From: Candidatus Woesearchaeota archaeon
GTDB taxonomy: Archaea > Nanobdellota > Nanobdellia > Woesearchaeales > ARS49
Length of the DNA stretch: 24,000 nt
Reading direction: 5' to 3'
Assembly (NCBI GenBank): GCA_019322895.1
Contig: JAHWHZ010000001.1
Coordinates: 246,845-270,844, forward strand
Shown here: positions 4,672 to 24,000 of the stretch, one piece after another
Layout of the letters: every line of letters begins with the position of its first letter
Position numbering within the stretch: the stretch's first letter is position 1
The notes under the pieces: generated by a model
Seen by the model: the letters and a program-made list of their open reading frames with translations, nothing else
Told to the model about the DNA's origin: nothing
Databases searched by the model: none
Translations under genes and position numbers: made by a program

Positions 4672-5943
4672 ATGTTGAAGATACTCAAGATTAAGTCTCG
4701 TGAGATACTTGATTCTAGGGGAAATCCTACTGTTGAGACAGAGATACACACAAAAAAAGGCATTTCTAAAGCAAGTGTTCCTTCTGGTGCTTCCACAGGT
4801 ATTCATGAGGCAGTAGAATTAAGGGATGGCGGCAAGAGATATCTTGGAATGGGTGTCTCAAAAGCAGTCAAGAATGTTAATACAACCATTGCAAAAAAAA
4901 TGGTTGGAAAAAGTTTCAATCAAGAATCTGCTGACAAGCTTATGATAAAGCTTGACGGAACTGCAAATAAATCAAAGCTCGGCGCAAATGCAATATTGTC
5001 AGTCAGCATGGCTTTGTGCAAGGCATCTGCTTTGGAAAAAAGAATTCCATTGTACAAGCACATTGCAGAGCTGTTCAACAACAAGAAATTGATTCTTCCA
5101 ATACCTGCATTTAACATAATAAATGGAGGCCAGCATGCTGGAAACCAACTGGAAATCCAGGAATACATGCTGCTGCCAACAAAGGCAAAGAGTTTCAAGG
5201 AAGCGATGCAAATTGGTTCTGAAGTCTATCATGAATTAAAGAAATTGCTTGCAAAAGAATACGGCAAGATTGCAACAAATGTAGGTGATGAAGGAGGCTT
5301 TGCGCCGCCAATGACCTGTTATGAAGAGCCTTTGGATTATATCATGGATGCTGTTGAAGAATTAGGATATTTCAAGAAAATAAAATTAGGCATTGATGCA
5401 GCTGCAACATCTTTCTACAGGAACGGCAAGTATTACCTGGAAGGAAGCGAACTGTCTTCAAATGAATTGATAGATGTTTACATCGAGATGGCAAATGCTT
5501 ACCCTATTGTATCAATAGAAGATCCTTTTGTTGAAGATGATTTTGAATATTTTGCAAAACTGAACAAGAAAATAAAAGGAGTGCAGGTTGTCGGCGATGA
5601 TTTATTGTGCACAAACCCGCAGAGGATACAGAAGGCGATAATAATGGACAGCTGCAATGCGTTATTATTGAAAATCAACCAGATCGGCACAATAACAGAA
5701 GCACTTGACGCAGCAGACATAGTGATGAAGCAGAAATGGAATGTGATGGTCTCTCACAGGAGCGGGGAGACTGATGACAGCTTTATTGCAGACCTTGCAG
5801 TCGGCCTGGGAAACGGGCAGATAAAATCAGGAGCTCCCTGCAGGGGAGAGAGGCTTGCAAAATACAATCAATTATTAAGAATAGAAGAAGAGCTTGGAAA
5901 GAAAGCAAAATATGGAGGCAGGATTACATGGCAAAGAAAATAG
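4672..5943 (+). CDS. eno: Enolase (phosphopyruvate hydratase)
   Basis: [29 protein letters not shown], the [13 protein letters not shown] segment, [10 protein letters not shown] and SHRSGETDD are all classic enolase blocks. GGTGAT lies immediately upstream. Confidence 0.95.
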
Positions 5944-6806
5944 TTTTTGGAGGCACTAATTCAAGGGACCTTGCTAAGAAAATAGCCAAGAAAATAAAAG
6001 CACCTTATGCAGCATTGATAGTTGATCATTTTCCAGACGGCGAGACTTACTTAAGGCTTCCGATAGACGTAAAAAACAAAGAAGTTGTTTTGGTTGAATC
6101 AATGCATCCAAATCCAGATTCTATCATGATTGAAACAATATTTGCAGCGAGGACTGCAAAAGAATTAGGTGCAAAAAAAGTCATAATAGTCGCTCCATAT
6201 CTAGCGTATCTAAGACAAGATAAAAGATTTTATCCAAGGGAGTGCAAGTCAAATACAATAATGTCTGCATTGATGACCTGCGGAGATGAGATAATTGCAG
6301 TTGACCCGCATATTCAAAGGATTAAAAGACTGCAGGATATTTTCAAGATTAAAGCAAAACAATTGACTTCTAACAAGGAAATCGCAAAATACATCAAGAA
6401 GAACATCAAGAATCCTATTATCTTAGGGCCGGATTGGGAAAGCTTCCAGTGGGCTGAAAAGATTGCTAAGATGATCAAGGTTGAAGTTACTGTTTTGAGA
6501 AAAAAAAGATACACTGCAAGGCACGTGAAAATTAAATTAAAGATTAAAAATGGCATAAAAGGCAGGAATGTAGTAATTATAGATGACATTATCAGTTCAG
6601 GGCATACAATGATTGAAGTGATTAAGCAGGCAAAGAAAATGAAGGCAAAATCAATCACTTGCATCGGCGTGCATGGAGTTTTTGCTGAAAACGCCTATAA
6701 AAAGATGAAAAAAGCAGGCGCGACAAAAATAATAACAACAAATACAATCCAGAGACCTACAAGCAAGATAGATATTTCTGGAATCATTGCAGAAGCCTTG
6801 AAATGA
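5928..6806 (+). CDS. prs: Ribose-phosphate pyrophosphokinase (PRPP synthetase)
   Basis: [27 protein letters not shown] and the PRPP-binding loop [14 protein letters not shown]. There is a 16-nt overlap with eno. Confidence 0.85.
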
Positions 6807-6871: not shown

Positions 6872-7366
6872 ATGTTAAAACAGACACGCAATATGCTGAA
6901 ATCAGCACCAACTCCAAATGATTTGGACATCGTGCTTCGGGTGGGAAAAAAATATGGCATAGATGAAGCTGTGTCAATATACACTTCAAAGATTTATGTG
7001 AATCACTGGGTTGGCTTGAAATATAAATATGCTAATAATGATGCCTGCAGCCATGTTCTTGGTCCTGACCAGACATACAAGCTTCTGAAAGAATACCGCC
7101 GGGCTGTCTTGATAATCGGCAGCAAGAAAGAGGATTTCAACAAGGCAATCATTGAGATGGAGACGCAGTTAATCAAAGAGGGGCTCTATAAGGCACTGGC
7201 TCTTATCAACAGTCCTTGTGCTTTGTGTAATAAAGAAAAGATTGCAAGGCCTTCTCTTGAATCAGTAGGTATTGACATTCTTGCAACTGTGCGCAAGTTC
7301 AAGAAAAACGTGAAACAACCTGCAATTGGAGAATATCCTCCTTATGCTATAATTCTTACAAGTTAA
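6872..7366 (+). CDS. Hypothetical protein, possibly DUF2284-like predicted metal-binding protein (cysteine-poor variant)
   Basis: The C-terminal block SPCALCNKEKIARPSLESVGIDILATVRK resembles the C..C....RPSmEa.GIDV signature I associate with DUF2284. The N-terminal Cys motif of that family is not evident. A TATA-like AAATATATAAA lies about 23 nt upstream, so the transcript is probably leaderless. Confidence 0.4.
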   Translation: MLKQTRNMLKSAPTPNDLDIVLRVGKKYGIDEAVSIYTSKIYVNHWVGLKYKYANNDACSHVLGPDQTYKLLKEYRRAVLIIGSKKEDFNKAIIEMETQLIKEGLYKALALINSPCALCNKEKIARPSLESVGIDILATVRKFKKNVKQPAIGEYPPYAIILTS

Positions 7367-7710
7367 TATGCATCTGCAGGGCAGCAGATCCAGTCAGGAT
7401 ATCTTTCAGGATAATTTGTTGGCGTGCATTTCTCTTGCCTTCTAATTTTCTTTGTTTGTATTCTATATCCATCTGGGCAAGGCTCTTTTCCTGCCCAATC
7501 CCGGTATCCTTTTCTTTCAAATGTTCCTACAATGACTCCTTCAGGATTCCCGCCGACATATGGCCTTTTTTCGCTTATCATCTTCACTGCTCTTCCTGGT
7601 TTGATATTAAATGTTCCAAGGCCTGTTGTGGTGGTATTGAACATAAGAATAAGACTTACTATTGAAATAACAGAAATAACACCTAATACAACTAATGAAA
7701 AAGACTTCAT
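7363..7710 (-). CDS. Small N-terminally membrane-anchored protein, C-x16-C-x13-CC ectodomain (tandem family member 1)
   Basis: N-terminal hydrophobic helix SLVVLGVISVISIVSLILMF followed by NTTTTG. Cysteines at residues 78, 95, 109 and 110, with C-terminal ...WICCPADAY. GGTGAAGTGA lies upstream of the ATG. Confidence 0.6.
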   Translation of the reverse strand: MKSFSLVVLGVISVISIVSLILMFNTTTTGLGTFNIKPGRAVKMISEKRPYVGGNPEGVIVGTFERKGYRDWAGKEPCPDGYRIQTKKIRRQEKCTPTNYPERYPDWICCPADAY

Positions 7711-7745
7711 TCACTTCACCGGGTTAATAAAAAAGTTAAAAAAAA

Positions 7746-8153
7746 TTAATATTCGCCTTGTGCGCCAATTAATTGGCATGCGGTGTCTCCAACCCAGTAG
7801 TCTATCTGTTCAGGTTTTGATGCTTCCCTGTTCGGATAGCAAGGTGAAGTGAACGGACTTGTTGATCTTGTTACTGTTGGCTTTACTTGCATTATAGCAG
7901 AACCTGTGTCCCAGTAGCCTGCATAGTAAACCGGCTGTTCATATGTTTCTGGAACGCCTGTTACCCAGCCACCGTAAAGTTCCTGGAACCTATCGGTCTT
8001 TCCGCCTTGGTATAGCTTTGGCTGGCCATACAAGCTGGAAGTGATAGAATACGCTCCGCTCATTGCTCCTTTAAACAGCATCACTAAAGCCACTACTGCA
8101 ATAACTGCAACAATACCCAGTATAACCAATGAAAGGTTTCGCTTTTCATCCAT
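7746..8153 (-). CDS. Small N-terminally membrane-anchored protein (tandem family member 2, 2-Cys variant)
   Basis: The listed GTG start (8165) lies inside the GAGGTGA ribosome-binding site, so I use ATG 8153 (MDEKRNLS...). The helix LSLVILGIVAVIAVVALVMLF is followed by KGAMSG, and the protein ends ...QGEY. Confidence 0.55.
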   Translation of the reverse strand: MDEKRNLSLVILGIVAVIAVVALVMLFKGAMSGAYSITSSLYGQPKLYQGGKTDRFQELYGGWVTGVPETYEQPVYYAGYWDTGSAIMQVKPTVTRSTSPFTSPCYPNREASKPEQIDYWVGDTACQLIGAQGEY

Positions 8154-8221
8154 TTTTTTATTCACCTCAAATTTTTTAATTTGATTTTCTTTTTAAACTA
8201 TATTAAGTATTTAAATCTTTC

Positions 8222-8749
8222 TTAATACGTTGACGTTTGCCTGTCAAAGCAGCACATGCCGCCTTCCCAGCTTGGAGTGCCTTCTGGAAGCAGGTCTAAT
8301 GGTATATATATTGTTGACCTTCCTGCTGCATTTCGATAGTTTCCATAGCATTCTTTTATTGTTCCTTTTAATCTGTCTGCTTCAATCTTTGGATATTCAA
8401 GGCCAAGATCTCCTCTTCCTGATACAAGGCATGACAAGTGAGTTACATACTGGCTTTCTCTTCCTTTCTTGTTGTCCCACACATTTGTGCCTGTCTGTCC
8501 AAGATTTCCTGGCACTTTTCCGTCTACCAAGTATTCGCCGCCTTCTGGTTTAAGCACTCCCAGTGCTTCGCCGTATGGCTTTTGCGCGCCCCACAATGCC
8601 CTTCCTGCATTTGAAACTCTCCAATTCTCCATTTGTGTTGGAGTATTTTCAATGTATACCATTCCTGTGTTTACATTTGAAAGCATCAATACAAAGCTCA
8701 CAAGCGCTACTGCCAATACCACGCTTAAAATGATTGTTTTTTCTTCCAT
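8222..8749 (-). CDS. Small N-terminally membrane-anchored protein, C-x25-C-x32-CC ectodomain (tandem family member 3)
   Basis: GAGGTGA lies 4 nt upstream of the ATG. The helix IILSVVLAVALVSFVLML is followed by SNVNTG. Cysteines at residues 107, 133, 166 and 167, and the protein ends ...MCCFDRQTSTY. Confidence 0.6.
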   Translation of the reverse strand: MEEKTIILSVVLAVALVSFVLMLSNVNTGMVYIENTPTQMENWRVSNAGRALWGAQKPYGEALGVLKPEGGEYLVDGKVPGNLGQTGTNVWDNKKGRESQYVTHLSCLVSGRGDLGLEYPKIEADRLKGTIKECYGNYRNAAGRSTIYIPLDLLPEGTPSWEGGMCCFDRQTSTY

Positions 8750-8763
8750 GATTTCACCTCAGC

Positions 8764-9135
8764 TTAAATAACACAGCACACTTGGTCTGTGTTTGTTGCA
8801 TATATGTCAAAATAAGGATAACATTTGTTAAGGTCATTGAACTCTTCTGCACTAAGATATGCTGGGACATCTTTTGCGGAATATTGTTCTCCTGTTACTG
8901 TCAAGATATGGCATGGCTTGCTTGGCCTGACTGCCTTTATTGCATGTCCCCATGCAGGTATCTGATATGCTTTTTCCTGCCCTGGCTCAATAACTGTTCT
9001 AGTATATGCATGTATCATAGACGGCTTGACTGCAAGTCCTGTTGTTCCAGAATTATACATCATAACCAATCCAACAACAGATAACACAGCTACAACTGCC
9101 AGAATTGTTAAAGGTAATCCTTTTTGTAAGTCCAT
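8764..9135 (-). CDS. Small N-terminally membrane-anchored protein, C-x29-C-x14-CC ectodomain (tandem family member 4)
   Basis: The listed GTG start (9144) is part of GAGGTGA; ATG 9135 lies 5 nt after that motif (MDLQKGLPLT...). The helix LTILAVVAVLSVVGLVMMY is followed by NSGTTG. Cysteines at residues 75, 105, 120 and 121, and the protein ends ...QVCCVI. Confidence 0.55.
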   Translation of the reverse strand: MDLQKGLPLTILAVVAVLSVVGLVMMYNSGTTGLAVKPSMIHAYTRTVIEPGQEKAYQIPAWGHAIKAVRPSKPCHILTVTGEQYSAKDVPAYLSAEEFNDLNKCYPYFDIYATNTDQVCCVI

Positions 9136-9205
9136 AAATTTCACCTCAGTTTTTTATCTATATGAGAGGATTATAACAGTTTCTGTATATAAATCTTTTG
9201 TTATT

Positions 9206-9640
9206 TTATACTAGAAACATGATTGTTGCTACTGCAAGGAAAACAAGCAGGTTTGCTGCAACATCTTTCTTGTTTTTTAGCAAAGAGCCTGCTGGAAAGT
9301 TATATAAGAAAGTGAAAGCGCTTATTATCAAAAAATAATCTGTTTTTGATGCTAAGAAGAAAGCAACTGCAAGTATTGTAGACATAAGCAGATGATTTAT
9401 TTTCTTGAAAAAGCTAAGGTATGCAAATATTATTACCGCTCCTGCCCAGATATAATGAACATTTGTTCTGTTAATATACATTAGCAATAATATAACAGCG
9501 CAGAACAATGCCTTTTGCATGATTAAAAGATATTTTTTCCCTGGCTTTATTTCTTCTTTTGCAATCCTTGCTAAGATTCTTCCTAGAATTAATCCAGTTG
9601 ATGCTATTACTGCTATTATTATATAGTTCAGGACTTCCAT
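9206..9640 (-). CDS. Polytopic membrane protein, unknown function (about 4-5 predicted helices)
   Basis: Alternating hydrophobic stretches (IIIAVIASTGLILGRIL, ALFCAVILLLMYI, IWAGAVIIFAYLSFF, LMSTILAVAFFLA, LIISAFTFLYNF, LLVFLAVATIMFLV). The ATG overlaps the stop of the upstream Dph2 fragment by 13 nt. Confidence 0.5.
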   Translation of the reverse strand: MEVLNYIIIAVIASTGLILGRILARIAKEEIKPGKKYLLIMQKALFCAVILLLMYINRTNVHYIWAGAVIIFAYLSFFKKINHLLMSTILAVAFFLASKTDYFLIISAFTFLYNFPAGSLLKNKKDVAANLLVFLAVATIMFLV

Positions 9641-9882
9641 TCAGAATGACCCCATTGAATCAATAAATCAACTTTCAAGTCTTCAACTTGTTTTGGAATA
9701 TCACATGCACCAAAGCACGAGCCAAGCCATATTATTATTTCTGCTCCTGTCTTTTCTTTAAGTTCATTGTGAATCTTTTCAGCCTGCGGCTTAAGGCCGT
9801 CTGGTAATTGGATGCATACTCTCTTTGCTTTTGTTTTCTTTATTTCTTCTGTTGCCTTATCAAGCTCTAGTTCGTATTCCAT
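9628..9882 (-). CDS. dph2: Dph2 (2-(3-amino-3-carboxypropyl)histidine synthase) N-terminal fragment, 84 aa only
   Basis: YELELDKATEEIKKTKAKRVCIQLPDGLKPQAEKIHNELKEKTGAEIIIWLGSCFGACDIPKQVEDLKVDLLIQWGHS matches the first ~85 residues of archaeal Dph2, which is about 340 aa. Similarity stops at GHS and the ORF ends 4 codons later. Confidence 0.65.
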   Translation of the reverse strand: MEYELELDKATEEIKKTKAKRVCIQLPDGLKPQAEKIHNELKEKTGAEIIIWLGSCFGACDIPKQVEDLKVDLLIQWGHSEWKS

Positions 9883-9966: not shown

Positions 9967-10056
9967 GCCCCTGTAGCTTAGTCTGGTAGAGCGCGTGGCT
10001 GTTATAGCCTTACTACAGAGACCACGAAGTCGCAGGTTCAAATCCTGCCGGGGGCG
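9967..10056 (+). tRNA. tRNA-Asn (anticodon GTT) with a 16-nt canonical-position intron (10005-10020)
   Basis: Hand-folded. Acceptor GCCCCTG/CGGGGGC, D-arm GCTT-AGTCTGGTA-GAGC, anticodon stem CGTGG/CCACG, loop CT-GTT-A, and T-arm GCAGG-TTCAAAT-CCTGC. The intron junctions fit a BHB with central helix CTGT/ACAG and 3-nt bulges TAT and AGA. No CCA is encoded. Confidence 0.85.
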
Positions 10057-10076: not shown

Positions 10077-11087
10077 TTATTCTTCTAGAAGCTTGCCAAT
10101 TTCTTCAGAAGCTCCTGCTTCCAAGAGTTTATATACATTCAATGCTCCATTCGCATACTTAAGTATGCTGGATTCTCCGTGCCCTTTGCCAATCATGTGC
10201 TTGAATCCGCCAAAGAATGCAACTCCCTGCTCGTCAGGATCATACCATTTTTTTAGTTCTTTTAATGTCTGCATGAATTTTGCTTTTTCTTCATCACTGC
10301 ATTTTGGAAGATATAATGCGCAAAGGTCTGTTAAAACATTATTGCAGGTCTCTTCTGCAACTTTTAATATGATATTGCCCATCACTCCTGAAACAGCTGC
10401 ACCGCTAACTTCGCCAGCGTATAGGTGCTCTGGCTCGACAAACTCTATGCCTAATGCTTCTCGCGCAACGCGCATAACACTATCGCCTTTTGTTGGCTCA
10501 ACTCCATTGGATAATATTCCTATTCTTGGATTGTCTTCATTGAACAATACTTTTGCATAGACTTTTGTAATGCTTACTATTTGTTTATATGTCCTTAAAT
10601 CATGTGTCCGCGTTGCTCCAACATCGCAAAGAAAATACTTTTTCTTTGTTACCATGCTTGCAGGCATCTGCGCAATCAAATATGGTTTCCTTATGCCTGG
10701 AAATTTTTCAACCTTGTTACTTACAAGTGCCGGCCTTACAAGTGTCGGAAGCACATGTTGCGTGTTGCCGCAAGTGTAGAATCCTTCTGCAATCCCATCT
10801 TTTAAGTGTGCGCACGCATGTTCCACGATTGCTTCTGTTAATCTTTTGGAATGAGTTTCTGCAGGTTCTGAATCAACTGTAACATCAACAAGCTTTAATC
10901 TGTCGCGGTCAAAATCCTCTGTTACTTTTTCTTCAAGAACTCTTTGTGCTTTTTCCTCATTTCCAATGCCTATGAAGACTCCGTCTGTGCTTTGGACTGC
11001 TTTTACAGCGCCAAGTACTGCTCTTTCAAGCATTGGCACTCCGCCAACTTTGTCTCCACCTTCTAAATCAAGCAATAATTTATGCAT
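10077..11087 (-). CDS. plsX: PlsX-like phosphate acyltransferase family protein (bacterial fatty-acid/phospholipid synthesis type)
   Basis: I moved the start to ATG 11087, which has GGAGAT upstream, because the longer ORF runs through the tRNA-Ile gene. Blocks collinear with PlsX are LDLEGGDKVGG (cf. DAMGGDxAP), CGNT, GIRKP, CDVGAT (cf. DxGAN), NPRIGILSNGVEPTKGD (cf. PRVGLLNIGEExxKG), SGVMGNIILKVAEE (cf. GFxGNxxLK) and FFGGFKHMIGKGHGES. Confidence 0.6.
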   Translation of the reverse strand: MHKLLLDLEGGDKVGGVPMLERAVLGAVKAVQSTDGVFIGIGNEEKAQRVLEEKVTEDFDRDRLKLVDVTVDSEPAETHSKRLTEAIVEHACAHLKDGIAEGFYTCGNTQHVLPTLVRPALVSNKVEKFPGIRKPYLIAQMPASMVTKKKYFLCDVGATRTHDLRTYKQIVSITKVYAKVLFNEDNPRIGILSNGVEPTKGDSVMRVAREALGIEFVEPEHLYAGEVSGAAVSGVMGNIILKVAEETCNNVLTDLCALYLPKCSDEEKAKFMQTLKELKKWYDPDEQGVAFFGGFKHMIGKGHGESSILKYANGALNVYKLLEAGASEEIGKLLEE

Positions 11088-11137
11088 GTTATATCTCCAA
11101 GGTTTTTCTCGGTTTTTAAAGCTTATGAATAAAATGA

Positions 11138-11288
11138 TGGGCCTGCCGTGATTTGAACACGGGACCGCTCGATCTATGAACTCTTGTTCAGTCACTGGAG
11201 ACAAGGTCTTCAATGATGAGCCCTCCGAAGAAAGCTCGCGAACTCGAATTTATCAGTCGAGTGCTCCACCAGGCTAAGCTACAGGCCC
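11138..11288 (-). tRNA. tRNA-Ile (anticodon GAT) with a ~77-nt intron (about 11174-11250)
   Basis: Hand-folded on the minus strand. Acceptor GGGCCTG/CAGGCCC, D-arm GCTT-AGCCTGGTG-GAGC, anticodon stem CTCGA...TCGAG, loop CT-GAT-A, variable CGGTC, and T-arm CCGTG-TTCAAAT-CACGG. The exact intron boundaries are ambiguous because only 3 of 4 central BHB pairs form in the canonical register. Confidence 0.8.
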
Positions 11289-14672: not shown

Positions 14673-14737
14673 TTTTTTTTCTTTTTAATTCAACTTCTCG
14701 ATAGTTTTTTAAACCCAGAATAAGTTATTTCTCTTAT

Positions 14738-14809
14738 GCCCCTGTAGTATAGTGGATAGTACGTGCGGTTGCGGTCCGTAAAACCGGAGTTCGATTCTCC
14801 GCAGGGGCA
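14738..14809 (+). tRNA. tRNA-Arg (anticodon GCG), intron-less
   Basis: Hand-folded. Acceptor GCCCCTG/CAGGGGC, D-arm GTAT-AGTGGATA-GTAC, anticodon arm TGCGG-TT-GCG-GT-CCGTA, and T-arm CGGAG-TTCGATT-CTCCG with discriminator A. Confidence 0.85.
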
Positions 14810-14908
14810 TATATTCTACTTACACGAAATTGGCTTGAAATTCAAATTCGTGCGCGCAATCTTGTATTGCGCAGTTTTGATCAAATTTTTTTTAAAAATT
14901 TGGTTTGC

Positions 14909-14925
14909 TTCTCCGCAGGGGCATA
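14909..14925 (+). repeat. Exact 17-nt copy (TTCTCCGCAGGGGCATA) of the tRNA-Arg 3' end (14795-14811)
   Basis: Direct repeat read in the sequence; the two copies are separated by 97 nt. The spacer contains the hairpin GCGCAAT-CTTGT-ATTGCGC and an imperfect CACGAAATT...AAATTCGTG pair. Confidence 0.8.
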
Positions 14926-14962
14926 CAAAGTTTTTTATTCTAATCAATATTCTGTCTCATTA

Positions 14963-16495
14963 ATGGTGGAGGCAAAGCAGGAACTCAAGGACCTATATTC
15001 TAAAATGGTTAAAAGCGGTTTTATAGAGCCTTCTGTGCTTGAACATTTGATAGACACTGGAAAAACAAAAGGATATTTGACCGGGGATCAGTGCGTAGAT
15101 GCATTGAACTATGAAAAAGGAGATCCTTCTGAATGCCTGAGTCACCTGATTGAATATACTTCAATTGCAGGAATTGAAATTGTTGATGCGGCGCCAAAAA
15201 CAAGAGCGCCTAAAACTGCTTCCAAAGCAGCAAAGCATCCGCCTAGGAAAAAACAATCAGCAGATTTTATTCTGCAGATATATTTGCGTGAAGTGGGAAG
15301 TTATCCGCTTCTCAAAAAGGAAGATGAAATGCGGCTTGCAAAAGACTTTCGCAAATATAAAAAAGTATTATTGGCCAGATTCTGCAGGGTGCCTTGGTAT
15401 GTTGAAAAGATTGGGGAGCGATTTAAAGAGATTGCAGAGAAAAGAATCTCACCGGTCTACACACTGATTTATCCAAAGAAAGACGAGGAAAACGTCAAAG
15501 AAAGGATAAAGACGTATTCAAAGACGTATGAAAAGATCGATGAAACAGTAAAAACATTGCGCAGAAAATTGAAAAGAACGCAGAATAAAAAGAAAAAAGA
15601 AGAAATATTCTGCGCAATCCAAAGGAAAAAAAGAAATTTGCTGCACCTGATTAATGAGTTTAATTTCCAGTCAGAATTTATGGCCGAAATATTCAAACAA
15701 CTGCCGATTATTTCTGGAAAACAGGCTAAAGATGCAAGGATTCTCCAGAAAGCCTGGCAAAAATACAAAAGCATAGTGTCTGAAGTTTGCGAAGGAAATC
15801 TTCGGCTTTCTGTGAAGATTGCAAGAAAACATCGAAATAAAGGTGTTTCTTTTTTTGACTTGATTCAAGCAGGCAATATCGGGATAATCGCTGCTTTGGA
15901 AAGATATGATCCTGCCAGGGGTGTCAGGTTTGGAACATTTGCGTACTGGTGGATTGAGCAAAAAATCAAGAGAGAGATTCAAGAGCATTCCAGTACAGTA
16001 AGGGTTCCTGCACATGCACGAGACTTTTTGCGCAAATACCGGCATACAGCAAAGCAGCTTTACAGCAGGCTAAGCAGGACGCCGAGCATAGATGAAATCA
16101 TGAAAGAAGCAGGGATGTCTAAAAACGATCTTAAAACAATAAGATTGGCAGCCAGGCAGGCCATATCAATTGATGTGCCTGTTTCAATAGCAGAAGACAG
16201 CACAACCAGGGGAGCGATGATTGAAGCTCCTGAGAAAGACAGCCCTGATAAATACACAAACATTTTAGACGCAAGGAAAAAGATAATGCAAGTATTGGTT
16301 AAACATCTCAGTGAGCGGGAAAGAACCATAATCATACAAAGGTATGGCTTGAATGGCAGGCCAGCAAAGACATTGGATGCAATCGCTGATTTTTATGAGG
16401 TTAGCAGAGAACGAATTCGGCAGCTTGAAAAAAGAGCCATAAAAAAGCTGAAAGTTCCTATAGTACAAAAAAAACTTGAAGACTTGCTTGATTAA
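14963..16495 (+). CDS. rpoD: Bacterial-type primary RNA polymerase sigma-70 factor (RpoD-like, regions 1.1, 1.2, 2, 3 and 4)
   Basis: I chose ATG 14963; the longer ORF from 14867 reads through the tRNA-derived repeat. Region 1.2 is QIYLREVGSYPLLKKEDEMRLAK. Region 2 is GNLRLSVKIARKHRNKGVSFFDLIQAGNIGIIAALERYDPARGVRFGTFAYWWIEQKIKREI. Region 3 is STVRVPAHARDF, and region 4 is LSERERTIIIQRYGL...TLDAIADFYEVSRERIRQLEKRAIKKLK. Confidence 0.85.
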   Translation: MVEAKQELKDLYSKMVKSGFIEPSVLEHLIDTGKTKGYLTGDQCVDALNYEKGDPSECLSHLIEYTSIAGIEIVDAAPKTRAPKTASKAAKHPPRKKQSADFILQIYLREVGSYPLLKKEDEMRLAKDFRKYKKVLLARFCRVPWYVEKIGERFKEIAEKRISPVYTLIYPKKDEENVKERIKTYSKTYEKIDETVKTLRRKLKRTQNKKKKEEIFCAIQRKKRNLLHLINEFNFQSEFMAEIFKQLPIISGKQAKDARILQKAWQKYKSIVSEVCEGNLRLSVKIARKHRNKGVSFFDLIQAGNIGIIAALERYDPARGVRFGTFAYWWIEQKIKREIQEHSSTVRVPAHARDFLRKYRHTAKQLYSRLSRTPSIDEIMKEAGMSKNDLKTIRLAARQAISIDVPVSIAEDSTTRGAMIEAPEKDSPDKYTNILDARKKIMQVLVKHLSERERTIIIQRYGLNGRPAKTLDAIADFYEVSRERIRQLEKRAIKKLKVPIVQKKLEDLLD

Positions 16496-19547: not shown

Positions 19548-20615
19548 ATGGACGTAATATTAGAAAAAGCAAAACAAGCAGACATGAACCTAGACGGCCT
19601 GAAAGTAGGGCAGGCAAACATAAAAGTGATTGGTGCCGGGGGCGGCGGTAATAATATGGTTACCTGGCTCTATAAGAGAGGCATCAAAGGCGCAGAAATA
19701 ATTGCTTGCAACACAGACAAGCAGCATTTGAATGTTTCTGAAGCAGATAAAAAATTCATAATCGGCAAAGAATGCACCCGCGGACTGGGCTGCGGTGGCT
19801 TTCCTCAAAAAGGAGCAGAAGCTGCCCAAGAGAGCATTGCTGAACTAAAGACAGTGCTTAAGGGTGCAGATATGACTTTTGTTTGCGCGGGATTAGGAGG
19901 TGGAACTGGCACTGGTGCTGCACCAGTAATTGCCCAGCTTGCAAAAGACATGGGCTCTATTGTAATAGGTACAGTCACCATGCCGTTCAACATAGAACGC
20001 GCAAGGATTGAAAAAGCAGAATTCGGTCTTGAGCAATTAAGAAAATATTCTGACACTGTTATTGTTATTGACAATAACAGGCTGGTCACTATCGCAGGCA
20101 ACCTGCCGATACAGCAGGCATTTGCAGTAGCAAATGAATTGATTGCAACGATGATCAAGGGAATTGTCGAGACAATCGCAATGCCAAGCTTGGTAAATCT
20201 GGATTATGCAGACGTCAAGACAATAATGACAAATGGCGGCGTTGCTGCCATAGGTGTAGGAAGCTCTGACACAAACAACAGAGTAGAAGAAGCAGTCAAG
20301 GGCGCTTTGGAAAACCCTCTGCTTGATATAGAGTATGCTGGCGCAACAGGCGCATTGATACATATCAGCGGCGGACCTGACATGACTCTCGAGGAAATCA
20401 ATAAAGTAGGAGAGCTTGTCACAGAAAGCCTTGACGATGATGCCAATGTAATCTGGGGAGCAAGAGTAGGCGAAGAGATGAAAGGAAAGCTGATGGTGAT
20501 GACAATAATCACAGGCGTAAATTCACCTTGGATTATTGGAAAAGCCACTGAAACCAGCAAGGCTGCTGCAAAAGCAGAGCTTGAAGACGCATTAGGCATT
20601 GAAATCATAAACTGA
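19548..20615 (+). CDS. ftsZ: Cell division GTPase FtsZ
   Basis: IKVIGAGGGGNNMV, NTDKQHL and the tubulin signature GLGGGTGTGAAPVIA, followed by the IGTVTMPF segment. Confidence 0.92.
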   Translation: MDVILEKAKQADMNLDGLKVGQANIKVIGAGGGGNNMVTWLYKRGIKGAEIIACNTDKQHLNVSEADKKFIIGKECTRGLGCGGFPQKGAEAAQESIAELKTVLKGADMTFVCAGLGGGTGTGAAPVIAQLAKDMGSIVIGTVTMPFNIERARIEKAEFGLEQLRKYSDTVIVIDNNRLVTIAGNLPIQQAFAVANELIATMIKGIVETIAMPSLVNLDYADVKTIMTNGGVAAIGVGSSDTNNRVEEAVKGALENPLLDIEYAGATGALIHISGGPDMTLEEINKVGELVTESLDDDANVIWGARVGEEMKGKLMVMTIITGVNSPWIIGKATETSKAAAKAELEDALGIEIIN

Positions 20616-20727
20616 TGTTCACCCCCTTTGGTCTTTGGTGAACAGGTCGCTTGACCTGAGTGTGTTTTTCTTTGCCTTCATTATACCACCCCCAATCAAG
20701 TTTAGTGAAGGCAAAAAACGCAATTTG

Positions 20728-20762
20728 CCCCCGCGAGCCACACGCGCGGGGGACATTTTTTT
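20728..20762. terminator. All-G/C 8-bp hairpin (CCCCCGCG-agccacacg-CGCGGGGG) flanked by T-runs on both strands, between convergent genes
   Basis: On the plus strand the hairpin is followed by ACATTTTTTT (T7, 20756-20762). On the minus strand it is followed 9 nt later by TTTTTT (20713-20718). It lies between ftsZ (+) and the PDZ-protein gene (-). Confidence 0.45.
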
Positions 20763-20843
20763 ACAATTTATTCAATTATTCAGATTAACAATTAAAAGAA
20801 TACTTCTTAAAGGGTTTTAAAAGGAGGGGGTTTTTATAGAAAG

Positions 20844-21707
20844 TTATTTTATTTTTTTTATTCCTGATTCAATTAGTATTGGTTTTCCTTCTGGTGTGTA
20901 AACTATTTGTTCAAATGTAAAGAAACATTTTGTTTTTGGGCACATTTTCTGCATGGTAGCTATGCCAAGCCACGCCTTTCCAGTTTGTTCACCTAATGTG
21001 AGGTCATATGTTCTTTTATCAGTATGGATTATGAAACTTTGGTTAGGTTTTTTGTTTGCTAAAATTGTTGTTAATTCTTGTGAAGATGTTATGGTTTCTC
21101 CATAATCTACTTTAATAATTACTTCCCCAGGAGTTATCCCTGCCATTTCTGCCGGCGAGTTTGGCTGAACTTGTATTATTTGAACTCCACACGGCTCTTG
21201 CGGGCAGGATTGCACAAATAAAGCGCTTAATAATGCAACAAAAAGAACAAAGTATATCATTCGGGCTATTCCATTAAGAAATATTAGATAAAGTATTGCA
21301 ATTAATACATCTCTTTTGTTTCTTTTAAAGCGTTTTTGGAATAAGTGTTTATAGATATTAACAGTTGAACATACAAGCAAATGTGTTGAATAAAAAGCAA
21401 CAAATACTCCTATTAGTGCAGTTACTATATAAAACAGACCATACAAGAAATTAATATTTAATATGCTTAATATATCTGAAAAATCTGTTTTTAGCTTAAA
21501 AACAGCCCACCATACAGTAGATATAGCAAACAAAATAAGGACTGCTATTAATCTATTTTTAGTAAATTTATGAAATTCTTTAGAGGTATATCTATAAATC
21601 AAATAATAGATAAAAATAAGTAATATGTAGAATACAAATGCGCCGATATGCCACATATTAGGGATTACTGCTGTTTTTATCGGAAGTAATGATCCTGCGA
21701 TATCCAT
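20844..21707 (-). CDS. Polytopic membrane protein with C-terminal PDZ domain (start uncertain: ATG 21707 preferred, TTG 21797 is the longest ORF)
   Basis: The PDZ block is GVQIIQVQPNSPAEMAGITPGEVIIKVDYGETITSSQELTTIL, and several N-terminal hydrophobic helices precede it. No HExxH motif is present, so I do not call it a site-2 protease. TTTAAATA lies 22 nt upstream of ATG 21707. The gene is visibly more A/T-rich than its neighbours. Confidence 0.55.
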   Translation of the reverse strand: MDIAGSLLPIKTAVIPNMWHIGAFVFYILLIFIYYLIYRYTSKEFHKFTKNRLIAVLILFAISTVWWAVFKLKTDFSDILSILNINFLYGLFYIVTALIGVFVAFYSTHLLVCSTVNIYKHLFQKRFKRNKRDVLIAILYLIFLNGIARMIYFVLFVALLSALFVQSCPQEPCGVQIIQVQPNSPAEMAGITPGEVIIKVDYGETITSSQELTTILANKKPNQSFIIHTDKRTYDLTLGEQTGKAWLGIATMQKMCPKTKCFFTFEQIVYTPEGKPILIESGIKKIK

Positions 21708-21829
21708 GAAGCTAATTTTATGTTTAAGATATTTAAAGCTTTGGAAATTTAAAATATTCCCAATTCCTAAGAGAGATAAAACTATCTCAGAACCCAACCT
21801 TTTTAAACCCGGATTCTATTTAACATAAT

Positions 21830-22591
21830 ATGACACTATACTTCATAGGACTTGGATTAAATGACGAGAAAGACATCACAGTAAAAGGTCTTAATCTTGT
21901 CAAGAAAGCAGATGTTGTCTATCTAGATAACTACACTGCTGTCCTTAACTGTCCTGTCAGCTATCTTGAGAAGCAATATGAAAAGAAAATCATTCTTGCA
22001 GACAGGGATATGGTTGAGAAGAATCCTGAGAAAACAATATTAAAAGATGCAAAAGACAAGAATGTTGCTTTTCTTGTTGTCGGCGATCCTTTTGGAGCAA
22101 CAACACATATGGATTTGTTGATGCGTGCAAAAAAAGCAGGAATCAAGACTCAGATTGTCCATAATGCCTCAATAATCTCTGCTGTCGGAGTCACAGGATT
22201 GCAGGTTTACAAGTTTGGCAAGACAACAAGCATCCCGTTTCCTGAAAAAGGCTTTGAGCCAGAAACTCCTTATGATGCAATTAAAGAGAATCAAAAGATC
22301 TGCCTGCATACATTATTGCTTCTGGACTTAAGGCCTAAAGAAAACAAGTTCATGACAATCAATGATGCAATAAACACTCTCTTGAAGATTGAGCTCAAAA
22401 GAAACGAGAAAGTCTTTACAAGAGACACTTTCTGCATCGGTTGTGCAAAGATTGGCTCTCTTGACCAAAAAATTAAAGCAGGAAAAGCTTCTGAGTTAAT
22501 GAAAGCTGATTTTGGCCCTGGCCTGCACTGCCTGATTGTTCCAGGAAAGCTGCATTTTGCTGAGGAAGACGTTGTTAATCGGTTCTATTAA
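21830..22591 (+). CDS. dph5: Diphthine synthase (Dph5)
   Basis: LYFIGLGL...DITVKGL, VVYLDNYT, VAFLVVGDPFGATTH and SAVGVTGLQVYKFG form the tetrapyrrole-methylase fold typical of Dph5. Confidence 0.85.
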   Translation: MTLYFIGLGLNDEKDITVKGLNLVKKADVVYLDNYTAVLNCPVSYLEKQYEKKIILADRDMVEKNPEKTILKDAKDKNVAFLVVGDPFGATTHMDLLMRAKKAGIKTQIVHNASIISAVGVTGLQVYKFGKTTSIPFPEKGFEPETPYDAIKENQKICLHTLLLLDLRPKENKFMTINDAINTLLKIELKRNEKVFTRDTFCIGCAKIGSLDQKIKAGKASELMKADFGPGLHCLIVPGKLHFAEEDVVNRFY

Positions 22592-23447
22592 ACTTTAAGC
22601 GATATAATCTTTTTCGAAAAAGCATCGCCTCTTTCTTATCTTTAAACGAATAGGATAATTTATTATTTTTTAAAAATCGCAGGAGTTTATTGCAAAGAAA
22701 TTTTTTAGTAAAACCTTTATTTACCGCGCCTTTATCTGAAATTTTAACGTTGGTAATGGGGCCCATAGCAGCAATTTTTTGAACATCTTTAATTTTAGAA
22801 ATTTCAATGCCTTGAAATATGCTCCAATTACGTTTATCCTGTTTTATTCTTGCGGATAAACCTAAGGATAAACATAATCTTCTCATATCTGAAACTACAG
22901 ACGGGTTTGTTTCAGCAATGCGAAATTCTGCTTCAAATTGTACTTGGTAGTATTGATACGTTTTATTTTTCTTTTTGTCTTTTTTTGACTTTAACTTAAA
23001 TGTATAACAAAGACTGCCGCCAAAATCAAATAAAATCCTTAAAGCAAGTTGTTTTATAATAACTGATTCATCTAATAAAAAAGACAAGGTAGGTTGCGGA
23101 TTCTTGAGGTATTCGGATTTAGTCTGCAGTCCGGGGGTGGTTTTATAAGTGGGAGATAATGTCAATAACTCTTCTAGAGCATTTGCTGAATGCAATGTAG
23201 AAACAATAATTTTTTTATTGTCGCGCAAATAAACATAAAGCTTAGGTGTTTTATTAAATAAAGCCACACACAAATATTTAAACAGTAAATGCTGTTGTTT
23301 ATTTCCAACTGTTAACAAGCGGATATATCTCTTTTTTGTATCCATGTATCCTTCAGCCAGAACAATAACTGCAAGTAATTTTAATTTCTGTACACGGCTC
23401 AACTTACTAAACTGTTTTAACATCATATTAAACAGCATACTGCTCAC
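22575..23447 (-). CDS. Hypothetical protein with two degenerate LAGLIDADG-like motifs (free-standing homing-endonuclease-like); start uncertain
   Basis: LKLLAVIVLAEGYMD and LALRILFDFGGSL are spaced about 110 residues apart, as in double-motif LAGLIDADG proteins. The second motif lacks the acidic residue. The listed start is GTG; ATGs follow at 23438 and 23426. The gene is very A/T-rich and overlaps the dph5 3' end by 17 nt. Confidence 0.35.
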   Translation of the reverse strand: MSSMLFNMMLKQFSKLSRVQKLKLLAVIVLAEGYMDTKKRYIRLLTVGNKQQHLLFKYLCVALFNKTPKLYVYLRDNKKIIVSTLHSANALEELLTLSPTYKTTPGLQTKSEYLKNPQPTLSFLLDESVIIKQLALRILFDFGGSLCYTFKLKSKKDKKKNKTYQYYQVQFEAEFRIAETNPSVVSDMRRLCLSLGLSARIKQDKRNWSIFQGIEISKIKDVQKIAAMGPITNVKISDKGAVNKGFTKKFLCNKLLRFLKNNKLSYSFKDKKEAMLFRKRLYRLKFNRTD

Positions 23448-23536
23448 ACATATTTAAATTTTACGGCGGTTCGAAAATTTTCCGAAAAGCTTAAAAGATA
23501 CGGCCAGATTAGCCAATATTACGAGAATCAAGCAAC

Positions 23537-23642
23537 AGCCCTGTAGTGTAGTGGCCAATCATCGCGCACTTTGGATGCGTGGACGGCGGAAAAGACACAG
23601 ATTTGCTCTGTTCTTTGCCGATTTCGAATCCGCCCAGGGCTA
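23537..23642 (+). tRNA. tRNA-Gln (anticodon TTG) with a 33-nt non-canonical intron in the T-arm (23590-23622)
   Basis: Hand-folded. Acceptor AGCCCTG/CAGGGCT, anticodon arm GCGCA-CT-TTG-GA-TGCGT. The T-stem GGCGG (23585-23589) is separated from TTCGAAT-CCGCC (23623-23634) by the intron. A BHB can be drawn with central helix CGGC/GCCG flanked by 3-nt bulges GGA and ATT, then AAAG/CTTT. Confidence 0.75.
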
Positions 23643-23674
23643 TTGATTCTCTAATATAAAACTGATTAATAGTC

Positions 23675-23692
23675 TGAATCCGCCCGGGCTAT
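23675..23692 (+). repeat. Degenerate copy of the tRNA-Gln 3' end (GAATCCGCCCGGGCTA versus GAATCCGCCCAGGGCTA)
   Basis: The copy starts 34 nt downstream of the tRNA and differs from it by a single 1-nt deletion. It abuts the stop codon of the minus-strand partial ORF. Confidence 0.7.
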
Positions 23693-24000
23693 TTATTTTT
23701 CCAATTGACCGGTTATTCTTTTCAATTCTTTAATGCACTCAATCATATCATCATTGCAGACAGTGTATGAACACTCTGCCTGTTTTATCTGGTGTTCATA
23801 TTTAGAATCATAATAATCCTGCAGTAAAATCTTAGAGACTTCTTCATAATTTTTTTCATCCATTAATTTAAGCAGATCTTCAACAACTTTCTTGGTGAGG
23901 TACTGTTTTAGATAGACTATTATCTCTCTTATCTTGTCTTCTTCTCCATGTGTAAAATAATCTTTGACAATCTGTTTTGCTCTGTTTTCAATTGAACAAT
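23693..24000 (-). CDS. Partial CDS (C-terminal ~100 aa; 5' end outside the window), unknown function; weak resemblance to the C-terminal tail of tRNA 2-selenouridine synthase (SelU/MnmH)-like proteins
   Basis: This ORF is not in the supplied track because it has no start in the window. My own translation of the minus strand is open from 23998 to TAA at 23693-23695: ...IENRAKQIVKDYFTHGEEDKIREIIVYLKQYL...SKILLQDYYDSKYEHQIKQ...KRITGQLEK. The LLxxYYDxxY segment is the only basis for the family guess. Confidence 0.4.
   Translation of the reverse strand, partial: CSIENRAKQIVKDYFTHGEEDKIREIIVYLKQYLTKKVVEDLLKLMDEKNYEEVSKILLQDYYDSKYEHQIKQAECSYTVCNDDMIECIKELKRITGQLEK

What the first reader, a model, noticed from the sequence alone, without database searches (positions are those of the whole stretch)
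14963..16495. Full-length bacterial-type primary sigma-70 (RpoD-like) encoded inside an otherwise archaeal locus
The 510-aa product is collinear with bacterial RpoD over every conserved region. These are a region 1.1-like N-terminus (GKTKGYLTGDQCVDAL...IAGIEIVD), region 1.2 (QIYLREVGSYPLLKKEDEMRLAK) and a Lys-rich non-conserved spacer. Regions 2.1-2.4 follow (GNLRLSVKIARKHRNKGVSFFDLIQAGNIGIIAALERYDPARGVRFGTFAYWWIEQKIKREI), then 3.0 (STVRVPAHARDF) and 4.2 (TLDAIADFYEVSRERIRQLEKRAIKKLK). The residues that contact the -10 and -35 elements in bacterial sigma look retained (Y-WW, RERIRQ), so it does not look like a decayed relic.

Everything around it is archaeal information-processing machinery: L44e, S27e, aIF2alpha, Nop10, GINS, ATP-dependent ligase, Dph5 and BHB-intron tRNAs. 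Archaea initiate transcription with TBP/TFB, and no bacterial core RNAP subunit is in the window. The gene sits right after a tRNA-Arg with a duplicated 3' end, which is a plausible acquisition scar.

Possible roles are all speculative. It could dock on the archaeal RNAP clamp, act on a bacterial partner's polymerase, or be a repurposed DNA-binding protein. I cannot exclude that sigma-like genes have already been noted in surveys of DPANN genomes.
Basis: partly seen in the sequence, partly recalled or inferred. Interest (0 to 1): 0.85.

Follow-up and report, generated by a model that had tools for sequence, protein, structure and literature searches.

The report
Fast-evolving bacterial-type sigma factor in Woesearchaeota
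A DPANN archaeon really does carry an intact, complete bacterial-type sigma-70 gene that has been kept and inherited, but this kind of gene was already reported in these archaea and what it does without a bacterial RNA polymerase is still unknown.

Summary
ORF 14963-16495 (+) encodes a 510-aa protein that hits all five Pfam sigma-70 regions above threshold and folds like E. coli sigma-70. Its neighbours are archaeal (L44e, S27e, aIF2-alpha, Nop10, GINS, Hel308-type helicase, ATP-dependent ligase).

It is not an assembly artefact. At least four samples assembled the same join, and NCBI lists the protein under Candidatus Woesearchaeota.

It is also not a lone, recent insertion. Three other related contigs carry a sigma gene in the same slot, tRNA-Arg(GCG) > sigma > ligase. 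The host phylogeny and a weakly supported sigma tree agree on one old acquisition, with loss or replacement in two sister lineages.

The gene evolves very fast: sigma is 26-30% identical where the ligase is 70-84%. It is still under purifying selection (dN/dS about 0.3 against 0.03-0.17 for neighbours).

The residues kept in all four lineages are the classical -35, -10 and RNAP clamp-binding residues. It fails the RpoD equivalog cut-offs, so it is not a "primary" sigma. The duplicated tRNA 3' end is a separate scar, not the acquisition scar.

Sigma-70 genes in Woesearchaeota were already reported by Castelle et al. 2021. Their function remains unknown.

The parts
14963..16495 (+). Sigma-70 family CDS, 510 aa (NCBI MBW2973071.1, Candidatus Woesearchaeota archaeon)
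   Evidence: ORF. Pfam r1_1, r1_2, r2, r3 and r4 all above cut-off. Identical protein found in the public collection.
14963..15037 (+). N-terminal extension (res 1-25) holding the SG[FHY][IV] motif shared with the three positional orthologues and not seen in the bacterial sigmas aligned here
   Evidence: Alignments. S18 and G19 are among 9 shared rare residues. Predicted helix 2-17 has pLDDT 90-95.
15038..15211 (+). Region 1.1 (res 26-83)
   Evidence: PF03979, 30.1 bits against a cut-off of 22.5. By my own count from the sequence, residues 1-85 have a net charge of about -7.
15272..15358 (+). Region 1.2 (res 104-132)
   Evidence: PF00140, 34.3 bits. Y101 and L111 (E. coli numbering) are kept in all four lineages.
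15359..15796 (+). Short helical non-conserved spacer between regions 1.2 and 2
   Evidence: Much shorter than the E. coli spacer in the alignments. Helices 119-278 in the AF2 model.
15797..15991 (+). Region 2 (res 279-343): clamp-helix binding motif and -10 recognition/melting residues
   Evidence: PF04542, 57.6 bits. N383, L384, R385, L386, Q406, G408, N409, G411, F427, T429, W434 and Q437 are kept in all four lineages.
16028..16249 (+). Region 3 (res 356-429), including a diverged 3.2 finger
   Evidence: PF04539, 40.5 bits. Finger changes D513I, D514A, H518T, D521A and F522M. pLDDT below 50 at residues 401-422.
16301..16453 (+). Region 4 (res 447-497) with an intact -35 recognition helix, SRERIRQLE
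   Evidence: PF04545, 51.6 bits. R554, R562, L573, R584, E585, R586, R588 and Q589 are kept in all four lineages.
14931..14939 (+). TTTTTTATT, a TATA-box-like element 24-32 nt upstream of the ATG (inferred archaeal promoter)
   Evidence: many genes in the window carry TTTAAA-type elements about 25-35 nt upstream of the start codon. The orthologues have TATA-like elements plus GGTGA/GGGGG Shine-Dalgarno motifs.
14737..14810 (+). tRNA-Arg(GCG), the conserved left neighbour of the sigma slot
   Evidence: ARAGORN and Rfam, 60.9 bits. The same tRNA precedes sigma in L018 and L019. It precedes a different gene in L005 and L006.
14795..14811 (+). 17-bp repeat, copy 1 (the 3' end of the tRNA)
14812..14908 (+). 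97-bp spacer between the two repeat copies, probably the remnant of a later integration or duplication at the tRNA 3' end
   Evidence: The segment has no counterpart in L018 or L019, where sigma starts 51-56 nt after the tRNA.
14909..14925 (+). 17-bp repeat, copy 2, 37 nt upstream of the sigma ATG; likely the displaced original tRNA 3' end

Best explanation
This is a sigma-70 family gene with group-1 domain layout. It was acquired once from a bacterium by the ancestor of a small Woesearchaeota subclade and landed in the variable slot between tRNA-Arg(GCG) and the DNA ligase gene. It has since been inherited vertically, read from archaeal-type expression signals, and lost or replaced in some descendants. 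It is an accessory gene, not a housekeeping factor.

Sequence constraints are much looser than on a bacterial RpoD, but selection still preserves all the domains. It preserves in particular the residues that in bacterial sigma-70 read the -35 and -10 elements and bind the RNA polymerase clamp helices.

The most likely mechanism is inferred, not shown. The protein still works as a sigma-like adaptor that recognises -35/-10-like DNA while docked on a multisubunit RNA polymerase. The only polymerase expected in the cell is the archaeal one, whose clamp coiled-coil is homologous to the bacterial beta-prime clamp helices. On this view it acts as a non-essential modulator or alternative initiation factor alongside TBP/TFB.
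For: Shown:
- All five sigma regions are present and the protein folds like sigma-70.
- Independent assemblies agree on the join.
- Positional orthologues sit in the same slot in L018, L019 and L023.
- In the ligase tree the sigma-bearing contigs fall in one clade, made of two sister groups.
- The four sigmas group together in an NJ tree, bootstrap 123/200, with a topology that matches the hosts.
- They share 9 rare residues, against 0-4 in low-identity control triplets.
- GC content and codon usage match the neighbours.
- For L018 against L019, dN/dS is 0.27-0.30 for sigma and 0.03-0.17 for five neighbours. Every sigma domain is below 1, at 0.13-0.53.
- Of 106 positions at least 90% conserved in 150 bacterial sigmas, 37 are kept in all four archaeal lineages. 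They include R554, R562, L573, R584, E585, R586, R588, Q589, T429, W434, Q437, N383-L386, H455, R451, Q406, G408 and N409.
- TATA-like and Shine-Dalgarno-like signals lie upstream.

From the literature: sigma-70 genes are widespread in Woesearchaeota, and TBP, TFB and TFE are also present there (PMC8204110).

Inferred: keeping regions 1.1, 2, 3.2 and 4 together makes sense only for a protein that spans a polymerase surface. The functional roles of the named residues come from established E. coli and Thermus sigma-70 structural and genetic work, which I recalled and did not test.
Against: - No archaeal RNAP subunit of this organism was available, so docking is untested.
- E407 and M413 in the clamp-binding helix and most of the 3.2 finger are changed in the window protein. 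Region 4, which in bacteria binds the beta flap, shows the highest dN/dS, 0.53.
- No convincing sigma-70-type promoters were found in the window. There are 66 candidates against 44.8 +/- 7.1 in shuffles, but they are mostly inside genes. TTGACA occurs 27 times against 18.6 +/- 4.6.
- The gene is dispensable in sister genomes.
- Monophyly support is moderate, and long-branch attraction cannot be excluded.
Confidence: 0.4

Rival explanations
1. It is a stand-alone DNA-binding regulator. The protein no longer touches any polymerase and uses its region 4 and region 2/3 helix-turn-helix surfaces as an ordinary repressor or activator of archaeal promoters, as most bacterial-type regulators in archaea do.
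For: The most strictly conserved stretch is the region 4.2 recognition helix, SRERxRQ, in all four lineages. Several clamp-contact and finger residues have changed. No bacterial core polymerase is expected in the cell (PMC8204110).
Against: Region 1.1, which blocks DNA binding by free sigma-70 (established knowledge), the spacer and region 3.2 are all retained with dN/dS of 0.26-0.30. The clamp-binding motif Q406-x-G408-N409-x-G411 is invariant in all four lineages. A simple regulator would be expected to shed these parts.
Confidence: 0.2
2. It is a functionless passenger, a horizontally acquired gene drifting towards loss.
For: Divergence is extreme, with 58 of 126 near-invariant positions changed. 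It is at most 41% identical to any of 1.84 billion cluster representatives. The closest sister genomes lack it.
Against: The reading frames are intact at 510-543 aa in four lineages that have diverged to 70% ligase identity. dN/dS is about 0.3, not about 1, in every domain. The residues that are conserved are the functionally critical ones. The genome is small and streamlined.
Confidence: 0.1
3. It is an effector acting on a bacterial polymerase. The archaeon, presumably a symbiont, delivers the sigma to a bacterial partner and redirects its RNAP, as phage-encoded sigma factors do.
For: Promoter-recognition and clamp-binding residues suited to a bacterial core enzyme are retained. Fast evolution would fit a host-symbiont conflict. 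[quoted passage not shown]
Against: No export signal or secretion genes were noticed next to the gene, though this was not formally tested. Known DPANN hosts are archaea (PMC8204110 abstract). No related sigma was found in viral collections.
Confidence: 0.08
4. It is recent cargo of an integrated mobile element or provirus that targeted tRNA-Arg, with the duplicated tRNA 3' end as the scar.
For: The 17-bp duplicate of the tRNA 3' end is unlikely by chance. The slot after tRNA-Arg differs between relatives: a 187-aa ORF in L005 and L006, and other small genes in L024.
Against: The repeats bracket 97 bp and not sigma. No integrase gene was detected in the window. Sigma occupies the same slot without any duplication in L018 and L019. 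Its composition equals that of the host. No viral relatives were found.
Confidence: 0.05
5. It is an assembly or binning chimera that joins bacterial and archaeal DNA.
For: None found.
Against: The identical junctions were assembled independently in ENA ERZ27256796 and ERZ27256776 and in JGI 3300018080 and 3300017990, and the gene also lies on contigs of 0.2-1 Mb. Orthologues occupy the same position in three other species.
Confidence: 0.01

Closest known systems
Bacterial group 1 (primary) sigma factors, RpoD/SigA
   Same: It has the same domain order (1.1, 1.2, spacer, 2, 3, 4) and the same fold. The key -35 residues (R584, E585, R586, R588, Q589), -10 residues (T429, W433, W434, Q437) and clamp-binding residues (Q406, N409) are kept.
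   Different: It is encoded in an archaeon and is not in a dnaG-rpoD operon. It scores far below the RpoD equivalog cut-offs. It is at most 44% identical in regions 2-4, where the bacterial hits are about 58% identical to each other. It evolves fast, is dispensable in sister genomes, and carries an extra N-terminal helix.
Sigma-70 genes of DPANN archaea (protein family fam00359 of Castelle et al. 2021, Front Microbiol, PMC8204110)
   Same: It is a sigma-70 family gene on a contig whose other genes are archaeal, in Woesearchaeota, with no anti-sigma factor next to it. That is exactly the phenomenon reported there.
   Different: The paper gives no sequences, architecture, synteny or evolutionary rates, so membership in fam00359 could not be checked. 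The positional orthology, the evolutionary rate, the pattern of retained residues and the losses are described here.
Short group-3-like sigma in another DPANN contig (L062, 275 aa)
   Same: It is also a sigma-70 family protein on a contig that carries the archaeal ligase.
   Different: It has no region 1.1 and no spacer, sits at a different locus, and has a degenerate region 4.2.
Sigma factors encoded outside the genome of their polymerase (phage sigma factors; plant nuclear SIG genes for the plastid polymerase)
   Same: They set a precedent for a sigma encoded by one genetic system acting on a bacterial-type RNAP that belongs to another. This comparison comes from my own knowledge, not from a tool result.
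   Different: In those cases a bacterial-type core polymerase is known to be present. Here none is known.
MzaA, the sigma-70-like protein of the MZA anti-phage system
   Same: The NCBIfam MzaA model aligns across residues 25-510 (219 bits), and there is a PADLOC hit of 132.6 bits.
   Different: The score is far below the cut-off of 800, and no MZA partner genes are nearby. The resemblance reflects general RpoD-likeness.

Membership tests
Sigma-70 family (Pfam clan of regions 1.1-4) | Region 2 (PF04542) and region 4 (PF04545) present above the gathering score | tested here: met
   57.6 bits against a cut-off of 24, and 51.6 against 24.1
Sigma-70 family, group 1 architecture | Regions 1.1 and 1.2, a spacer and region 3 also present, in the canonical order | tested here: met
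   r1_1 30.1 bits against 22.5, r1_2 34.3 against 22, r3 40.5 against 25.3. Collinear alignment to E. coli RpoD. Fold match to full-length sigma-70.
RpoD / primary housekeeping sigma (NCBIfam equivalogs) | Score at or above the curated equivalog cut-off | tested here: not met
   PRK05658 235 bits against 555. RpoD_Cterm TIGR02393 206 against 354. All other RpoD, RpoS and SigA models are also below their cut-offs.
RpoD / primary housekeeping sigma | Near-invariant region 2-4 sequence under strong purifying selection | tested here: not met
   58 of 126 conserved positions are changed. dN/dS of region 2 is 0.32 in the orthologue pair.
RpoD / primary housekeeping sigma | Indispensable, so present in all close relatives | tested here: not met
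   Absent from the syntenic slot in L005, L021, L006 and L022, where the ligase is 84-87% identical to the window's. Only the slot and its flanks were examined, not whole genomes.
RpoD / primary housekeeping sigma | A cognate bacterial core RNAP (rpoA, rpoB, rpoC) in the same genome | not testable with these tools
   Only the window and its 10-kb flanks can be read. No such gene lies in the 24 kb.
DPANN sigma-70 genes (Castelle et al. 2021) | A sigma-70 family gene physically linked to taxonomically informative archaeal genes in a DPANN genome | tested here: met
   Relatives are named Woesearchaeota, Pacearchaeota or Nanoarchaeota. NCBI also names the organism Woesearchaeota.
DPANN sigma-70 genes (Castelle et al. 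2021) | Membership in their protein cluster fam00359 | not testable with these tools
   The cluster's sequences are not in the supplementary files that are held.
MzaA (MZA defence system) | Score above the cut-off, and MzaB-E genes adjacent | tested here: not met
   219 bits against 800. The neighbours are a membrane protein, an ASCH protein and the ligase, with no PADLOC MZA hits.

The most novel reading that the evidence does not exclude
A lineage of archaea has kept a bacterial sigma factor for a long evolutionary time because it works with the archaeal RNA polymerase. It would dock on the Rpo1N clamp coiled-coil and direct or modulate initiation at -35/-10-like sites. That would be a natural hybrid of the bacterial and the archaeal/eukaryotic initiation systems. 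The fast evolution and the added N-terminal helix would then reflect re-fitting to a foreign polymerase.
Probability: 0.15. Interest if true: 0.9.

Novelty: new member of a known kind. Interest (0 to 1): 0.5.

Why it matters
Sigma factors and TBP/TFB are treated as mutually exclusive solutions to promoter recognition in Bacteria and in Archaea/Eukarya. A sigma gene that selection maintains in an archaeon, with its promoter-reading and clamp-binding residues intact, raises a direct question: can a sigma engage an archaeal polymerase?

This locus makes that question testable. It supplies four diverged natural variants, sister genomes that have lost the gene, and a defined set of retained residues to mutate.

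If the protein turns out to be only a DNA-binding regulator or a passenger, it is one more example of the known bacterial gene influx into DPANN.

Tried and rejected
- **Chimera.** Rejected by the independent assemblies.
- **Close homologues or a donor.** A word-indexed search and an exhaustive phmmer search found nothing above 41% identity. The named full-length hits are Planctomycetota and Omnitrophota at 28-30% identity, which is too distant to name a donor.
- **Profile search with the three archaeal sigmas.** It returned only ordinary bacterial RpoDs.
- **Misleading top hits.** P0293 looked like a bridge sequence but is a bacterial SigA with a duplicated region 2. P0140 and P0327 lie in bacterial dnaG-rpoD operons.
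- **Viral or phage origin.** No relative in IMG/VR, and phage hits are at most 37% identical over regions 2-4.
- **Defence system (MzaA).** Rejected.
- **The tRNA repeat as att sites flanking sigma.** There are only two copies, and both lie upstream of sigma.
- **Target promoters.** Consensus scans and TTGACA counts gave a weak, mostly intragenic excess, which is not usable.
- **Population dN/dS within the window species.** There are no SNPs in sigma among the four contigs.
- **Rfam.** Nothing in the sigma region apart from the tRNA.
- **Literature.** Apart from Castelle et al. 2021 I found no paper on the function of archaeal sigma genes.
- **Technical failure.** A first bootstrap run with Biopython timed out. 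I redid it with a numpy neighbour-joining routine.
Full report
**1. The observation**

The window holds an ORF at 14963-16495 (+) that encodes 510 aa. Pfam places all five sigma-70 regions on it in canonical order, each above its gathering score:
- region 1.1: residues 26-83
- region 1.2: residues 104-132
- region 2: residues 279-343
- region 3: residues 356-429
- region 4: residues 447-497

An AlphaFold2 model built on 66 sequences has mean pLDDT 84.9. Only the 1.1-1.2 linker and the 3.2 finger have low confidence. Its best PDB matches are full-length E. coli sigma-70 chains from holoenzyme structures, E = 3.5e-17.

The neighbours are archaeal. They include GINS51, L44e, S27e, aIF2-alpha, Nop10, PAC2, a Hel308-type helicase with the archaeal domain 4, an ATP-dependent DNA ligase, a diphthamide-synthesis fragment and a Dph5-like methylase.

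**2. Not an artefact**

The identical protein is in NCBI as MBW2973071.1, 'sigma-70 family RNA polymerase sigma factor [Candidatus Woesearchaeota archaeon]'. It is on record for contigs up to 705 kb. Contigs from four separate samples carry the same gene order across both junctions and are 99.96-100% identical to the window. The GC content, GC3 and synonymous-codon likelihood of the sigma gene fall within the range of the other 27 ORFs in the window.

**3. Already reported as a phenomenon**

Castelle et al. 2021 (PMC8204110) state that sigma-70 genes (their family fam00359) occur in DPANN genomes and are 'particularly prevalent in Woesearchaeota'. They ruled out mis-binning and found no anti-sigma factors. 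They also note that the control mechanism is unclear, because TBP, TFB and TFE are present as well. I found no later work on function.

**4. A sequence orphan at first sight**

An exhaustive phmmer search of 1.84 billion cluster representatives gives 1117 bits for the protein against itself and 215 bits for the next hit. No hit exceeds 41% identity. In regions 2-4 the protein is at most 44% identical to any hit, while the hits are about 58% identical to each other. Of 126 positions that are at least 90% conserved in 65 bacterial relatives, 58 are changed. The median bacterial relative changes none of them.

NCBIfam's RpoD, RpoS and SigA equivalogs all score far below their cut-offs; the best is 235 bits against 555. 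It is therefore not a bona fide RpoD.

**5. It has positional orthologues**

One distant hit, P0239, shared an odd N-terminal extension with the window protein. P0239 and its 63%-identical relative P0292 lie on contigs L018 and L019. Both contigs have the window's gene order: helicase, methyltransferase, PHP protein, 150-aa protein, tRNA-Arg(GCG), sigma, then the ligase on the opposite strand, then a nitroreductase.

A metagenome scan anchored on the ligase found a fourth case. L023 carries a 541-aa sigma directly downstream of its ligase. All of these have the same Pfam architecture.

In a neighbour-joining tree of 94 ligases, the sigma-bearing contigs fall in one clade made of two sister groups:
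- {L018, L019, L023}, all with sigma.
- {window, L020, L005/L021, L006/L022}, in which only the window has sigma.

L005 and L006 carry an unrelated 187-aa ORF after the same tRNA-Arg. About 50 more distant relatives with enough flanking sequence have no sigma next to the ligase.

Three lines of evidence point to common descent of the four sigmas:
- They group together in an NJ tree with 90 bacterial sigmas (bootstrap 123/200), and the internal topology matches the host tree.
- They share 9 residues that are rare in bacteria, against 0-4 for control triplets of similarly low identity.
- They share the N-terminal SG[FHY][IV] extension.

The simplest history is one acquisition in the clade's ancestor, followed by two losses or replacements. 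Long-branch attraction remains a caveat.

**6. Evolutionary rate and selection**

| Pair | Ligase identity | Sigma identity |
|---|---|---|
| Window vs L018 | 70% | 27% |
| L018 vs L023 | 84% | 28% |
| L018 vs L019 | 95.6% | 63% |

For L018 against L019, sigma has dN = 0.22, dS = 0.72-0.80 and dN/dS = 0.27-0.30. The five neighbouring genes have dN/dS of 0.03-0.17. Every sigma domain is below 1, ranging from 0.13 to 0.53, and that includes region 1.1 and the spacer. The gene is therefore functional, but under constraints far looser than (or different from) those on a bacterial housekeeping sigma.

**7. What is conserved**

I aligned the four archaeal sigmas to E. coli RpoD (rpoD taken from NC_000913.3). 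Among 106 positions at least 90% conserved in 150 bacterial sigmas, 37 survive in all four archaeal lineages. They include:
- Region 4: R554, R562, L573, R584, E585, R586, R588, Q589
- Regions 2.3-3.0: F427, T429, W434, Q437, R451, H455
- Regions 1.2 and 2.1: N383, L384, R385, L386, Y101
- Region 2.2: Q406, G408, N409, G411

From established work on E. coli and Thermus sigma-70 (my own knowledge, not tested here), these are the residues that read the -35 element, read and melt the -10 element, and bind the beta-prime clamp helices.

The window protein also carries changes at other classical positions: E407A, M413I, Y425V, Y430F, R436E, T440K and E458D, plus a remodelled 3.2 finger.

**8. The tRNA repeat**

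The 17-bp sequence TTCTCCGCAGGGGCATA, the 3' end of the tRNA, occurs twice, at 14795 and 14909. Chance predicts 0.03 copies. Both copies lie upstream of sigma and bracket only 97 bp.

In L018 and L019, sigma starts 51-56 nt after an unduplicated tRNA-Arg. In the window, sigma starts 37 nt after the second copy. The second copy therefore looks like the displaced original tRNA end, and the 97 bp look like the remnant of a later integration or duplication between the tRNA and a sigma that was already resident. It is not the scar of sigma's arrival.

The slot is nevertheless variable among relatives.

**9. Expression signals**

Many genes in the window have a TTTAAA-type element about 25-35 nt upstream of the start codon, and some have GGTGA ribosome-binding sites. 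Sigma has TTTTTTATT at -32 to -24. Its orthologues have ATTATAAAAAA or CTTTTTAAC together with GGGGG or AGGTGAG. This fits archaeal-type expression but remains an inference.

No sigma-70-type promoter precedes sigma. Scans for such promoters or for TTGACA in the window give only a weak, mostly intragenic excess.

**10. Mechanism**

Shown:
- A complete sigma fold.
- Long-term retention under purifying selection in every domain.
- Selective retention of the DNA-reading and clamp-binding residues.
- Dispensability in sister genomes.

Inferred: a protein that keeps regions 1.1, 2, 3.2 and 4 together is most easily explained as one that still spans a multisubunit RNA polymerase while reading -35/-10-like DNA. 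The only polymerase expected in the cell is the archaeal one, so I favour an accessory role on archaeal RNAP (confidence 0.4).

The rivals, with my confidence in each, are:
- a stand-alone DNA-binding regulator (0.2)
- a drifting passenger (0.1)
- an effector for a bacterial partner's RNAP (0.08)
- recent mobile-element cargo (0.05)
- an assembly chimera (0.01)

No viral relatives and no defence-system context were found.

**11. Verdict**

This is a real and intriguing feature, but the phenomenon is published. It is a new member of a known kind. This analysis adds several things:
- the positional orthologues
- the probable single origin, with later losses
- the roughly three- to ten-fold elevated dN/dS
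- the N-terminal extension
- the list of retained functional residues
- the reinterpretation of the tRNA repeat

Noticed in passing
window 9967-10056 (+) and 11138-11288 (-): Rfam finds two more tRNA genes, of 90 and 151 nt, presumably with introns. ARAGORN calls the first 'tRNA-Stop (tta)' and misses the second. The second overlaps the TTG-start version of the PlsX-like ORF, whose true start is probably near 11087, as in the public gene call.
   Followed up: partly
window 9206-9882 (-): The diphthamide-synthesis (Dph2-like) gene looks split. An 84-aa ORF matches only profile positions 1-56 of 302, and the next ORF (144 aa) has no Pfam hit.
   Followed up: no
window 10077-11213 (-): A PlsX-type fatty acid/phospholipid synthesis protein (PF02504) is a second bacterial-type gene in this archaeal window.
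   Followed up: no
L062 8865-9692 (+) (JGI Ga0114931_10010429): A more distant DPANN contig (ligase 54% identical to the window's) encodes a 275-aa group-3-like sigma with regions 1.2, 2, 3 and 4 and no region 1.1. It lies about 5 kb from the ligase. Sigma-like genes therefore sit at other loci in other DPANN.
   Followed up: partly
L005 12407-12970 (-) and L006 about 5420-5960: In the sigma-less sister genomes, the slot after tRNA-Arg holds a conserved ORF of about 187 aa with no Pfam hit. L005 has an additional 124-aa ORF there.
   Followed up: partly
window 7363-9144 (-): Four consecutive small ORFs (115-175 aa) have no Pfam hit.
   Followed up: no
window 20500-24000: GC content drops to 0.31-0.35, against about 0.40 elsewhere. 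The stretch contains a PDZ-domain protein and a 290-aa ORF with no Pfam hit, and may be a foreign segment.
   Followed up: no
L103 (ENA ERZ27316157 k141_1158481), protein P0293: This bacterial SigA-like ORF has an exact internal duplication of regions 2 to 3.0. It is probably an assembly artefact, and it inflates the protein's similarity scores to every sigma.
   Followed up: yes
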